Below, one piece after another: positions 34,352 through 37,571 of a stretch of DNA of 64,000 nucleotides. Origin of the DNA: the human T2T-CHM13v2.0 reference genome, Homo sapiens. Under the pieces are notes generated by a model. It was not told where the DNA came from. It made no database searches and worked only from the letters and a program-made list of their open reading frames with translations. The stretch's first letter is position 1. The number at the start of each line of letters is the position of its first letter. The translations under genes were made by a program, and so were the position numbers. Location: the NCBI RefSeq assembly GCF_009914755.1, contig NC_060928.1; one strand, 5' to 3'.

Positions 34352-35257
34352 CTTTGTGGTTTTATCTACTTTTGGTCTTTGATGATGGTGATGTACAGAT
34401 GGGTTTTCGGTGTAGATGTCCTTTCTGGTTGTTAGTTTTCCTTCTAACAGACAGGACCCTCAGCTGCAGGTCTGTTGGAATACCCTGCCGTGTGAGGTGT
34501 CAGTGTGCCCCTGCTGGGGGGTGCCTCCCAGTTAGGCTGCTCGGGGGTCAGGGGTCAGGGACCCACTTGAGGAGGCAGTCTGCCCGTTCTCAGATCTCCA
34601 GCTGCGTGCTGGGAGAACCACTGCTCTCTTCAAAGCTGTCAGACAGGGACACTTAAGTCTGCAGAGGTTACTGCTGTCTTTTTGTTTGTCTGTGCCCTGC
34701 CCCCAGAGGTGGAGCCTACAGAGGCAGGCAGGCCTCCTTGAGCTGTGGTGGGCTCCACCCAGTTCGAGCTTCCAGGCTGCTTTGTTTACCTAAGCAAGCC
34801 TGGGCAATGGCGGGCGCCCCTCCCCCAGCCTCGTTGCCACCTTGCAGTTTGATCTCAGACTGCTGTGCTAGCAATCAGCGAGATTCCGTGGGCGTAGGAC
34901 CCTCTGAGCCAGGTGTGGGATATAGTCTCGTGGTGCGCCGTTTCTTAAGCCGGTCTGAAAAGCGCAATATTCGGGTGGGAGTGACCCGATTTTCCAGGTG
35001 CGTCCGTCACCCCTTTCTTTGACTCTGAAAGGGAACTCCCTGACCCCTTGCGCTTCCCAGGTGAGGCAATGCCTCGCCCTGCTTCGGCTCGCGCACGGTG
35101 CGCACACACACTGGCCTGCGCCCACTGTCTGGCACTCCTTAGTGAGATGAACCCGGTACCTCAGATGGAAATGCAGAAATCACCCGTCTTCTGCGTCGCT
35201 CACGCTGGGAGCTGTAGACTGGAGCTGTTCCTATTCGGCCATCTTGGCTCCTCCTCC
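34352..35257. promoter_or_regulatory. L1 5'UTR bidirectional CpG-rich promoter (sense promoter on -, antisense promoter on +)
   Basis: CpG-dense. Intact YY1 site GGCCATCTTG at 35237-35246. The antisense promoter region (established at about L1 nt 400-600) maps to about 34660-34860. Confidence 0.85.
34807..35022 (+). CDS. L1 ORF0 (primate-specific antisense ORF), intact 71 aa
   Basis: gcaATGG Kozak context. MAGAPPPASLPP...RCVRHPFL-stop, L1 nt 451-236. Donor sites after nt 106 (34912) and nt 191 (34997). Confidence 0.88.
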   Translation: MAGAPPPASLPPCSLISDCCASNQRDSVGVGPSEPGVGYSLVVRRFLSRSEKRNIRVGVTRFSRCVRHPFL

Positions 35258-36208
35258 TAGTATATTCTATTATATAATGTGCCATAATTTATTTATTCTC
35301 CTATAAATAATAATTGACTTGTTTCCAGTTTGGGCTATTAAGAATAAGGATATATATCCCCATATATTGTGGTGGATATATGTTTTCGGTTACCTGGGAA
35401 AGGTAGATGTATGTTTAATTTTATAAGAAATTGTCAAATATTTTTCCAAACAGTTGAACTATTTTACACTACCACCAGAAGCGTACGAGAGTTCCATTTC
35501 TTCCACATCCTTATCAACATTAGTGTGGTCGGTCTTTTCAATTTTAGAGATTCTTGTGGGTATGAAATTGAAACTCAGTGTAGTCTTATTTTTCATTCTC
35601 TAATTACTAATGATACTGATCATTTTTCATGTGTCTATTGGCCTTTCCTTTATTTATTTTTCTAAAGTGTGTATTTACATCTTTTGCCATTTTAAGATGC
35701 CATTATTTTATTTTTTGTTGGTAAAAATGTTTTGTATAATAATGAATCTTATTTTTAAATGTATTTCAGTTTCCTTGTTTGTTTTCTTAATGATATATTT
35801 TGATAGATTGTTGGTTTTGATAAAGTTTAGTATATCATTTTATGATAAATGTTTTGGAGTCTTATTGAAGACATCTTTGCCTTCTTCAAAGTACAAGGAT
35901 ATTATTCTATATTTTGTTCTAGAAGCCTTATGATTCTGGTTTTTATGTTTAGGTGTATGATCTATCTTAAACTTAGTTTTGAGTATGGAGTGAGATAGGG
36001 ATTGAGGCTCATTTTAAAAAATATTGGTATGTAGTTGTTTTAGCATAATTTGAATTTCCTCTCCTCATAAATGACTTGGTACTTTGGTTGAAATGAATGC
36101 TGGATTTTTTGTGTGAATACATACTACATGGATTTAATTTTCTATCTCATTAGTACTAACTAATTTAAGTAGAGTGGACAAACTAATCAGAGTTTGCATT
36201 TACTTTAG

Positions 36209-36417
36209 GAGAGATCAGAGTGGCCTTTGTCCTGTATAACAACTTGGGTCCTTATTTATCCACGGAGAATGCCAGTATGAAGTTGGGAACGGAAGCTTTG
36301 TCCACAAATCATTCTGTTATTGTCAATTCCCCTGTTATTACGGCAGCAATAAACAAAGAGTTCAGTAACAAGGTTTATTTGGCTGATCCTGTGGTATTTA
36401 CTGTTAAACATATCAAG
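36209..36417 (+). CDS. ADGRL3: ADGRL3 exon, GAIN subdomain B (GEIRVAFVLY...VFTVKHIK), 209 nt, phase 1-0
   Basis: Acceptor tactttag|GAGAGATC, donor ATCAAG|gtaaga. TACTAAC at 36154-36160. Confidence 0.96.
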
Positions 36418-36794
36418 GTAAGAAAATGGCATATTAGCTTGGTTGTTCATATTATCTGTATTTTTATAACACTGAACATTAAGTGTATTAATTTTCTTTT
36501 AATGTTTTTTCTATTTGACATATAACAGTTCATTATCTGTACAATGTAGTGGTAATTTTTTTGTCAGAAATAAGATTTGGAGGAGGAGAATAATCCTTAT
36601 ATATGTAAATACTTATGGTGAAAGCATTCATAGATGGATTTATAATTGCTTCTCCATAACTAAAAAGAGCTAGCTCAAGTGTAGAGAACTAAATTACAGC
36701 CTGAAAACCACAGATAATATTACAAAATTCTGCTGTATTTGGGATTCATGTGAAATGAATAGATTTTTAGCTGCTCTTGCTGCAAAAACAAGAA

Positions 36795-36912
36795 AACAAT
36801 GGGTAACTATGTGAGACGATGGATATATTAACTCACTTCACTTTGGTAACCTTTCTACTGTCTACATGTATTTCATAACATTATGTTGCATACCTTAAAT
36901 ATTCACAATACT
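36795..36912 (+). mobile_element. L1MA-type 3' end fragment
   Basis: ggtaactatgtgagacgatggatatattaact...gttgcataccttaaatattcacaat. Confidence 0.6.
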
Positions 36913-37394
36913 ATCTGTGTTTTTAAAGAAGAATAGGAGTACATTAAACAGAACTAGAGATGGTTCTATATTTGATATTTCAAGCAATTATGTCCACGTG
37001 AAGATATATTTTTGCATATATACAAAGATTGAGGTTGTAAATTCAACAAAGATTTCTAAAGATCATCCTTTCAGATGTTGGTTGTTAAGAGCAATTAACC
37101 TCTTTATTTTGCAATGTGTATTAGAATTAGTGTGATTTTGAAACATTGGTACTAGTATATTATTTTAGTGTTAATTTAAAAAAATAGTGCACTCTTCTCT
37201 AGTCAAAGGGAACAAACAATAGCATATATTCAATTTCACTTAGAATTGTTGAGGCCCACTTATGAAACCATTGGTAGACATCTCTAAAAAATTGGAACAG
37301 AATATGAAGTTGTATTATATGTAAAGAAAATGCCAACCTAATTTACATGATCATAAAGTAGTTGTTGATTTTATGGATTTTTTTTCCCCTGTAG

Positions 37395-37571
37395 CAGTCA
37401 GAGGAAAATTTCAACCCTAACTGTTCATTTTGGAGCTACTCCAAGCGTACAATGACAGGTTATTGGTCAACACAAGGCTGTCGGCTCCTGACAACAAATA
37501 AGACACATACTACATGCTCTTGTAACCACCTAACAAATTTTGCAGTACTGATGGCACATGTGGAAGTTAAG
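37395..37571 (+). CDS. ADGRL3: ADGRL3 GPS exon ([13 protein letters not shown]...[19 protein letters not shown]), 177 nt, phase 0-0
   Basis: Acceptor cccctgtag|CAGTCA, donor GTTAAG|gtaaga. GPS motif C-x2-W...W-x4-C...C-x-C-x-HL|T. Stachel TNFAVLM at 37533-37553. Confidence 0.97.

What the first reader, a model, noticed from the sequence alone, without database searches (positions are those of the whole stretch)
34807..37571. L1 antisense promoter plus ORF0 donor is in frame with ADGRL3: predicted human-specific ORF0-latrophilin-3 fusion receptor
Seen: intact ORF0 on the host strand (ATG 34807, strong Kozak, no ATG in the preceding ~150 nt). The donor CCAG|GTGTGG after nt 106 (34912) is phase 1, and the next host exon (36209, 1296 nt away) is a phase-1 acceptor. 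The join G+GA gives MAGAPPPASLPPCSLISDCCASNQRDSVGVGPSEP-GEIRVAFVLY... continuing through the GPS and Stachel toward the 7TM. The second donor (34997, phase 2) is out of frame. Established: ORF0 donors fuse to downstream host exons, and L1 antisense promoters drive truncated isoforms such as L1-MET. Inference: a receptor lacking the signal peptide, lectin, olfactomedin, HormR and the N-terminal half of GAIN. It would be uncoupled from teneurin/FLRT binding and might have an exposed tethered agonist, switched on by L1 demethylation. I cannot tell whether it is expressed or already reported.
Basis: partly seen in the sequence, partly recalled or inferred. Interest (0 to 1): 0.86.

Follow-up and report, generated by a model that had tools for sequence, protein, structure and literature searches.

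The report
L1 antisense promoter inside ADGRL3
A young human L1 element sitting backwards in an ADGRL3 intron can start shortened ADGRL3 transcripts when its DNA methylation is lost, an ordinary and already catalogued kind of event, and the proposed working fusion receptor has not been shown.

Summary
The sequence observation is correct. A full-length L1HS lies on the minus strand at 29220-35257, flanked by a 14-bp target-site duplication. Its antisense ORF0 (34807-35022, 71 aa) is intact. The donor after 34912 is phase 1, and the ADGRL3 exon at 36209 is a phase-1 acceptor. The join stays open for 164 codons through the GPS motif.

The geometry is not beyond chance. Any phase-1 intron fits, and 2 of the 4 acceptors in this window are phase 1.

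The element is catalogued in print as an L1HS (hg38 chr4:61939927-61945962) present in 12 of 12 cell lines. A tumour-restricted L1HS-ADGRL3 chimeric transcript starting in it is listed in TEITbase as TE_10658: 242 TCGA tumours, 3 adjacent samples, 0 GTEx samples.

The listed start maps about 62 nt downstream of the ORF0 ATG, so inclusion of ORF0 is unresolved. The product would lack a signal peptide and positions 1-162 of the 210-position Pfam GAIN profile, so a working receptor is unlikely.

Verdict: a real, ordinary L1 antisense-promoter isoform. The fusion protein is untested. Interest is low to moderate.

The parts
29206..29219 (.). Left copy of the 14-bp target-site duplication
   Evidence: Identical to 35258-35271.
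29220..35257 (-). Full-length L1HS, 6038 nt including a short interrupted poly(A) tail at its 3' end (low window coordinates)
   Evidence: 99% identical over 6030 nt to at least 4 other full-length copies in the same genome. The 5'UTR is 99% identical to 39 other listed places. Listed as chr4:61939927-61945962:-:L1HS:REF, full-length, intactORF1, in Lanciano 2024 supplements. The 3'UTR carries ACA at the position I recall as diagnostic for the Ta subfamily (the criterion is recalled).
35258..35271 (.). Right copy of the target-site duplication
33335..34351 (-). L1 ORF1, open, 338 aa
   Evidence: Agrees with the label 'intactORF1'.
29443..33271 (-). L1 ORF2, interrupted. The first stop comes after 204 codons and the remaining 1010-aa ORF is in another frame.
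34807..35022 (+). L1 ORF0, 71 aa, antisense to the L1 and on the ADGRL3 strand. The ATG is L1 nt 451.
   Evidence: No Pfam match.
34869..34869 (+). Approximate position of the catalogued TSS of TEITbase TE_10658 (hg38 chr4(+):61945574, L1 nt 389)
   Evidence: Mapped through the hg38 coordinates of the L1 given. Uncertain by several nt. The database's own validation tolerance was 100 bp.
34910..34918 (+). SD1, CAG|GTGTGG. The exon ends at 34912, phase 1, in frame with the exon at 36209.
   Evidence: U1 duplex -7.1 kcal/mol.
34995..35003 (+). SD2, CAG|GTGCGT. The exon ends at 34997, phase 2, out of frame (73-aa product).
   Evidence: U1 duplex -7.8.
35058..35066 (+). Third donor, CAG|GTGAGG. The exon ends at 35060, after the ORF0 stop.
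   Evidence: U1 duplex -11.6, the strongest of the three.
36209..36417 (+). ADGRL3 coding exon, phase-1 acceptor, encoding the last part of the GAIN domain
   Evidence: Pfam GAIN positions 163-210 of 210, E 5.9e-9. Identical to residues 261-329 of PDB 8vti_A and 707-775 of 6vhh_B.
36277..36279 (+). First in-frame ATG of the exon. It is the likely start codon if the transcript begins downstream of the ORF0 ATG. A 3-codon out-of-frame uORF (ATG 36269) overlaps it.
37395..37571 (+). ADGRL3 coding exon with the GPS motif, the HL|T cleavage site and the tethered-agonist start
   Evidence: Pfam GPS 1-45 of 45, E 2.1e-18. Translation.

Best explanation
A full-length L1HS with an interrupted ORF2 inserted antisense into the ADGRL3 intron just upstream of the exon that encodes the last part of the GAIN domain. 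The insertion is probably fixed and human-specific. Its 5'UTR antisense promoter is normally methylated and silent. Where methylation is lost, as in many tumours and some cell lines, it fires on the gene strand and the L1 leader is spliced to downstream ADGRL3 exons, giving a 5'-truncated chimeric ADGRL3 mRNA.

The coding outcome depends on start site and donor. A start upstream of 34807 combined with SD1 gives the in-frame fusion of 35 ORF0 residues to ADGRL3. SD2 gives a 73-aa frameshift product. The third donor leaves ORF0 complete, followed by its own stop. A start downstream of the ATG gives, at best, an N-truncated ADGRL3 beginning at the Met at 36277.

Any of these proteins lacks the signal peptide, all adhesion domains and most of the GAIN domain. 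The likeliest fate is poor membrane insertion, misfolding and degradation rather than regulated signalling. The in-frame geometry is a chance consequence of where the L1 landed. Shown here: the anatomy, the frame, the L1 family, the methylation pattern and the existence of a catalogued tumour transcript. Inferred: donor choice, translation and protein fate.
For: Anatomy and frame.

L1HS identity.

Methylation of the first CpGs of this L1 promoter, from Lanciano 2024 supplement files 1 and 4 (passages read): K-562 0.02, 2102Ep 0.28, HepG2 0.68, and 0.82-0.97 in the other 9 lines, including H1 at 0.95.

TEITbase Table S3 (passages read): TE_10658, L1HS_5end, chr4(+):61945574, ADGRL3, 'Chimeric'. 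[quoted passage not shown] The totals screened were 10,079 tumours, 740 adjacent and 10,620 normal samples. 'Chimeric' is defined there as having a novel 5' splice site relative to GENCODE v46.

The TSS falls inside this L1 at L1 nt 389. Two other antisense L1PA3 elements in ADGRL3 introns lie in CHM13 where the hg38 spacing predicts and have catalogued TSSs at the homologous position.

The general mechanism (antisense promoter, two ORF0 donors, hypomethylation dependence) is stated.

Protein deficits: the exon covers Pfam GAIN positions 163-210 of 210. The maximum 12-residue hydropathy in the first 72 residues is 1.09, with 151 residues before the cleavage site.
Against: I saw no junction read, and the TEITbase table gives only a TSS and a gene. 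Placing that TSS in the window rests on RepeatMasker coordinates from another paper and on colinearity of hg38 with CHM13.

The locus is absent from three other catalogues. Criscione 2016 EST-based transcripts: 10 supplement files, no LPHN3 or ADGRL3, and none of the six five-digit coordinate prefixes I searched for (62805-62808, 62810, 62811). Those prefixes came from a rough early estimate of the hg19 position and left out 62809. Pinson 2022 brain and glioma L1 chimeric transcripts: the only LPHN3 row comes from an L1PA3 at hg19 62506997-62513021, and the next row is already LPHN3-AS1. Jonsson 2019 DNMT1-knockout neural progenitors: 5 supplement files, no hit.

Pinson 2022 reports that only 2.9% of L1 chimeric transcripts are spliced at the 5' end.

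TEITbase labels the coding type only as 'Other', not 'Truncated' or 'Chimeric_truncated'. The well-known L1-MET row is also 'Non-coding, Other', so this label says little.

The qPCR validation of 'L1HS-ADGRL3' in NCI-H520 cells cannot be assigned to this L1, because four ADGRL3 entries exist and the primer table was cut from the stored file.
Confidence: 0.65

Rival explanations
1. Transcripts start upstream of 34807, use SD1, and are translated into an ORF0-latrophilin-3 fusion. This reaches the membrane and signals constitutively, or acts as a dominant negative, because the tethered agonist is no longer shielded by an intact GAIN domain.
For: The frame is open and the Kozak context is strong. 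ORF0-exon fusion products are reported in the literature I read at second hand. One of the four catalogued ADGRL3 L1 start sites (TE_10655, in another L1) lies 16 nt upstream of its ORF0 ATG, so upstream starts do occur. The catalogued TSS of TE_10658 is only 44 nt from SD1. In a repeat 99% identical to many copies, that could be a short-read mappability limit rather than the true start, which would point to SD1 use (inference).
Against: The catalogued TSS is 62 nt downstream of the ATG, as it is in 3 of the 4 ADGRL3 L1 entries. Criscione 2016 places the primary antisense start at about L1 nt 400, and ORF0 starts at nt 451. SD1 has the weakest U1 complementarity of the three L1 donors. There is no signal peptide, and a roughly 170-residue N-terminal tail would have to cross the membrane (plus a recalled distance from the cleavage site to TM1). 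Only 48 of the 210 GAIN profile positions remain. From recalled knowledge of GAIN structure work, the whole domain is needed for autoproteolysis. No paper in the library holds both 'ORF0' and 'ADGRL3'.
Confidence: 0.07
2. The transcript exists but carries no ORF0 start. It begins near 34869 and is either non-coding or translated from the internal Met at 36277 into an N-truncated ADGRL3 fragment without any L1-derived residues.
For: The catalogued TSS position. No ATG lies between 34857 and 34912. In the SD1-spliced model the first ATG is a 3-codon uORF and the second is in frame and open to the end of the window.
Against: TSS resolution is poor in L1HS sequence. TEITbase does not label the entry 'Truncated', though that label is weak evidence.
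Confidence: 0.25
3. The L1 matters to ADGRL3 mainly as an intronic obstacle, through heterochromatin, slowed elongation or cryptic processing of the host pre-mRNA. The antisense transcripts are tumour noise without consequence.
For: The L1 is heavily methylated in 9 of 12 cell lines. There are 0 GTEx samples with the transcript, and none was found in the brain data set.
Against: Nothing here measures host-gene processing. No canonical poly(A) signal lies on the + strand between 34807 and 36208.
Confidence: 0.2

Closest known systems
TEITbase entry TE_10658 (L1HS-ADGRL3), Database 2026, PMC13184619
   Same: It has the same gene, the same strand, an L1HS_5end promoter and a TSS that maps inside this very L1. 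It is tumour-restricted, as expected for a methylation-silenced promoter.
   Different: The entry gives no junction and no protein. Its TSS lies downstream of the ORF0 ATG and its coding label is 'Other'. The ORF0 fusion reading is not made there.
L1-MET and other L1 antisense-promoter chimeric transcripts (Speek 2001 and Nigumann 2002, seen only in reference lists; Criscione 2016 passages read)
   Same: An intronic antisense L1 acts as an alternative promoter that yields a 5'-truncated host transcript when hypomethylated. L1HS-MET is listed in TEITbase.
   Different: L1-MET is widely detected (3393 tumours). This one is detected in 242 and is absent from the EST, brain/glioma and DNMT1-knockout lists I could search.
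ORF0-exon fusion proteins (Denli et al. 2015, Cell; not held, known to me only through citing papers)
   Same: An intact 71-aa ORF0 with a strong Kozak context and two internal donors, one of which is in frame with the next host exon.
   Different: Citing papers report 57 observed fusions among about 3200 loci. Whether ADGRL3 is among them could not be checked.
N-terminally truncated adhesion GPCRs with an exposed tethered agonist (recalled: Liebscher 2014, Stoveken 2015, Mathiasen 2020 for ADGRL3; none read here)
   Same: The adhesion domains would be lost, while the GPS motif, the Stachel and presumably the 7TM region are kept.
   Different: The experimental constructs start at or near the Stachel and carry a signal peptide. 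This product would keep 151 unshielded residues in front of the cleavage site, would lack a signal peptide, and would probably not be cleaved.

Membership tests
L1HS (L1PA1) full-length retrotransposon insertion | Target-site duplication and a 3' poly(A) tail | tested here: met
   14-bp duplication at 29206-29219 and 35258-35271. A/T-rich tail at the 3' end.
L1HS (L1PA1) full-length retrotransposon insertion | Near-identity to other young copies, and the family label | tested here: met
   99% identity over 6030 nt to at least 4 copies. Labelled L1HS REF full-length. ACA in the 3'UTR (the criterion is recalled).
L1HS (L1PA1) full-length retrotransposon insertion | Both ORFs open (retrotransposition-competent) | tested here: not met
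   ORF1 is open at 338 aa. ORF2 is interrupted after 204 codons. This copy is a member of the family but is not autonomous.
L1HS (L1PA1) full-length retrotransposon insertion | Absence from other apes (human-specific) | not testable with these tools
   No ape genome is held. This is inferred from the family and the 99% identity only.
L1 antisense-promoter chimeric transcript | TSS on the antisense strand within the L1 5'UTR | tested here: met
   TEITbase TSS at L1 nt 389. This comes from a literature table, not from reads I saw.
L1 antisense-promoter chimeric transcript | Splice from an L1 donor to a host exon | tested here: inconclusive
   The entry is labelled 'Chimeric', defined as having a novel 5' splice site. 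The junction itself is not given.
ORF0-host fusion protein | Intact ORF0 start and a donor in frame with the next host exon | tested here: met
ORF0-host fusion protein | Transcript start upstream of the ORF0 ATG | tested here: inconclusive
   The catalogued TSS is 62 nt downstream of the ATG, but its resolution in L1HS sequence is limited (validation tolerance of 100 bp).
ORF0-host fusion protein | Junction reads or a junction peptide | not testable with these tools
   No RNA-seq or proteome data are available here.
Functional adhesion GPCR | Signal peptide for a long extracellular N-terminus | tested here: not met
   Maximum 12-residue hydropathy is 1.09 in the first 72 residues of the predicted fusion. 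This is a crude test.
Functional adhesion GPCR | Complete GAIN domain around the GPS | tested here: not met
   Only GAIN profile positions 163-210 of 210 would be kept, plus GPS 1-45 of 45. The exon starts at residue 261 of the 375-residue HormR/GAIN construct 8vti_A.
Functional adhesion GPCR | 7TM domain downstream in frame | not tested
   The 7TM exons lie outside the window.

The most novel reading that the evidence does not exclude
In cells that demethylate this human-specific L1HS (tumours, possibly naive embryonic or germ cells), some transcripts start upstream of 34807, use SD1, and are translated. That would give an ORF0-ADGRL3 polypeptide found only in humans. It could serve as a tumour-specific junction antigen, or as a cleavage-independent ADGRL3 C-terminal module that signals or interferes with signalling.
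Probability: 0.1. Interest if true: 0.6.

Novelty: new member of a known kind. Interest (0 to 1): 0.3.

Why it matters
ADGRL3 is a synaptic adhesion receptor gene with recalled associations to ADHD. A human-specific internal promoter placed just before the GPS-encoding exons could in principle make a receptor fragment that no other species makes. The evidence so far points to the ordinary case: one of thousands of L1 antisense promoters that fire in hypomethylated tumours. Its practical value would be as a tumour-restricted transcript, and possibly as a junction antigen, rather than as a new signalling receptor.

Tried and rejected
- **Literature searches.** 'LPHN3' + 'L1 antisense promoter' gave 0. 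'ADGRL3' + 'LINE-1' + 'chimeric transcript' gave 0. 'LPHN3' + 'L1HS' gave 0. 'ORF0' + 'ADGRL3' gave 0. 'LPHN3' + 'LINE-1' + 'antisense' gave 2 papers, judged irrelevant from the listing only. 'ADGRL3' + 'retrotransposon' was held by 9 papers, of which 8 were listed; only TEITbase is relevant, judged by title.
- **Papers not held.** Denli 2015, Speek 2001 and Matlik 2006. The list of 57 ORF0 fusions and the original start-site mapping were therefore not seen.
- **Supplements not available.** Those of Garza 2023 (PMC10619931) were closed. Its table S3 of brain L1 chimeras may bear on this locus.
- **TEITbase coding label.** I considered using 'Other' as evidence against an in-frame product. I rejected this as weak, because L1-MET carries the same label.
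- **Coordinates.** I first mis-indexed the L1 5' end as 35250 and later 35247. One search corrects it to 35257, and all L1 nt numbers in this report use 35257.
- **Structure prediction.** I considered folding the truncated GAIN remnant. I did not do it, because the product is a spliced join rather than a contiguous window sequence.
- **Complex prediction.** Not used. No binding claim is made.
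Full report
**Observation**

The + strand of window 34400-35500 is the antisense strand of an L1 5'UTR. The element runs from 29220 to 35257 on the minus strand (6038 nt). It has a short A-rich tail at its 3' end and an exact 14-bp target-site duplication at 29206-29219 and 35258-35271. 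ORF1 is open at 338 aa. ORF2 stops after 204 codons and continues in another frame.

On the gene strand, ORF0 starts at 34807 with G at -3 and G at +4, and encodes 71 aa ending at 35022. The closest upstream ATG is at 34416.

The donor CAG|GTGTGG after 34912 is phase 1. The donor CAG|GTGCGT after 34997 is phase 2.

The annotated ADGRL3 exon at 36209 follows an AG. The three coding exons before it in the window total 346 nt, so it is a phase-1 acceptor. The computed join has no stop in 164 codons and passes the GPS motif, with 151 residues before the HL|T site.

**Is it more than chance?**

No. SD1 fits any phase-1 intron, and 2 of the 4 acceptors in this window are phase 1. With two ORF0 donors of different phase, most intronic antisense L1s will have one donor in frame with the next exon.

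A third donor, CAG|GTGAGG after 35060, lies past the ORF0 stop. A crude U1 duplex calculation ranks it best: -11.6 kcal/mol against -7.1 for SD1 and -7.8 for SD2. The five native donors in the window range from -6.7 to -9.5.

**What the element is**

The 5'UTR is 99% identical to 39 other places listed in the same genome. The whole element is 99% identical to at least 4 other full-length copies. The 3'UTR carries ACA at the position I recall as diagnostic for the Ta subfamily.

In the supplements of Lanciano et al. 2024 (PMC10879037, passages read) the locus appears as chr4:61939927-61945962:-:L1HS:REF. It is described as full-length, 'intactORF1', in ADGRL3, and detected in 12 of 12 cell lines. 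Two of those lines, HEK-293 and HEK-293T, are related. It is also present in both hg38 and CHM13, so it is probably fixed. Absence from apes could not be tested here.

Promoter CpG methylation in that table is:
- K-562: 0.02
- 2102Ep: 0.28
- HepG2: 0.68
- the other nine lines: 0.82-0.97, including H1 at 0.95

**Is there a transcript?**

TEITbase (PMC13184619; main-text passages and Table S3 passages read) lists four L1HS_5end-initiated ADGRL3 transcripts. TE_10658 has its TSS at hg38 chr4(+):61945574. It is classed 'Chimeric', meaning a novel 5' splice site relative to GENCODE v46. It was found in 242 TCGA tumour samples, 3 tumour-adjacent samples and 0 GTEx samples, out of 10,079, 740 and 10,620 screened.

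Using the hg38 coordinates of the L1, this TSS is L1 nt 389. That corresponds to window position about 34869.

As an independent check of the mapping, I fetched the two CHM13 places predicted from the hg38 spacing of the other entries. Both hold antisense L1 5'UTRs, 93-95% identical to this one. They correspond to the L1PA3 elements listed.

The paper's qPCR validation of 'L1HS-ADGRL3' in NCI-H520 cells cannot be assigned to one of the four entries. The primer table was cut from the stored file.

**Results against, or limiting, the fusion reading**

- **Start site.** The catalogued TSS lies 62 nt downstream of the ORF0 ATG and 44 nt before the SD1 exon end. The same offset holds for TE_10656 and TE_10654 in the two L1PA3 elements. 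Only TE_10655 starts upstream, 16 nt before its ATG. Criscione 2016 (passages read) places the primary antisense start at about nt 400, and ORF0 starts at nt 451. Pinson 2022 quotes nt 300-500 and 150-250 as the start regions. This evidence is not decisive. ESTs and short reads are 5'-incomplete, the database accepted support within 100 bp, and reads in a repeat this similar to other copies are hard to place. A 44-nt first exon could simply mark how far junction reads reach. That is my inference, and if right it would point to SD1 use.
- **Other catalogues.** The locus is missing from Criscione's 988 EST-based transcripts (10 files). My coordinate check there used six five-digit hg19 prefixes taken from a rough early estimate and did not include 62809. 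The locus is missing from the supplements of the DNMT1-knockout neural progenitor study (5 files). It is also missing from Pinson's brain and glioma table, where the only LPHN3 row comes from the L1PA3 at hg19 62506997-62513021.
- **Splicing frequency.** Pinson reports that only 2.9% of L1 chimeric transcripts are spliced at the 5' end.
- **Coding label.** The TEITbase coding label is 'Other'. Because L1-MET is labelled 'Non-coding, Other' too, I give this little weight.

**The protein**

The exon at 36209 covers Pfam GAIN profile positions 163-210 of 210, and the next exon covers the whole GPS motif. In the solved HormR/GAIN construct 8vti_A the exon begins at residue 261 of 375.

The product would therefore lose the signal peptide, the lectin, olfactomedin and HormR domains, and about three quarters of the GAIN profile.

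The first 72 residues have no hydrophobic stretch typical of a signal peptide; the maximum 12-residue mean hydropathy is 1.09. A tail of 151 residues, plus the short stretch up to TM1 (recalled as about 20 residues), with four N-glycosylation sequons, would have to be translocated without a signal peptide.

From recalled knowledge of GAIN structures, the entire domain is needed for autoproteolysis, and the tethered agonist is a buried strand of it. Tethered-agonist activation has been shown with constructs that begin at or near the Stachel. A misfolded, uncleaved and poorly inserted protein is therefore the likelier outcome. This part is inference.

If the transcript starts near 34869, no L1-derived ATG is present. 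With SD1, the first ATG is a 3-codon uORF at 36269 and the second is the in-frame Met at 36277.

**Comparison and novelty**

This is an L1 antisense-promoter alternative first exon of the L1-MET type. Its ORF0 geometry belongs to the class described by Denli 2015, which I know only through citing papers. The transcript is already in a public database.

The ORF0-ADGRL3 protein reading is not in any full text I could search. The Denli fusion list and the Garza 2023 supplements could not be seen.

I file it as a new member of a known kind, with low to moderate interest.

Noticed in passing
L001:4181-5090 (CHM13 chr4:65,083,680-65,084,589) and L002:4744-5653 (chr4:64,810,243-64,811,152): Two further antisense L1PA3 5'UTRs sit in upstream ADGRL3 introns. 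Their catalogued tumour transcripts are more widespread than the one from the L1HS (TE_10655 in 635, TE_10656 in 232 and TE_10654 in 604 tumour samples). Their ORF0 is cut to 46 aa by a stop. In L001 the first 35 codons and SD1 are kept.
   Followed up: partly
window 35058-35066: A third antisense-strand donor, CAG|GTGAGG at L1 nt 198, lies after the ORF0 stop. It has the best U1 complementarity of the three L1 donors. It would leave ORF0 complete and place the ADGRL3 exons behind a stop codon.
   Followed up: partly
window 34869 and the homologous positions in L001 and L002: Three of the four TEITbase start sites in ADGRL3 L1s fall exactly 62 nt after the ORF0 ATG and 44 nt before SD1. This is either a precise sequence-determined start or a short-read mappability limit.
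   Followed up: no
window 34399-34656 (+): An 85-aa ORF on the gene strand, in the same frame as ORF0 but ending 150 nt before it, lies antisense to the 5'UTR just upstream of the ORF1 start. It is probably meaningless.
   Followed up: no
outside the window, hg38 chr4(+):61768868: TEITbase lists a HERVH-initiated non-coding transcript (TE_10657) at a position that falls between the ADGRL3 L1 entries. It is seen in 134 tumour samples and 0 normal samples.
   Followed up: no
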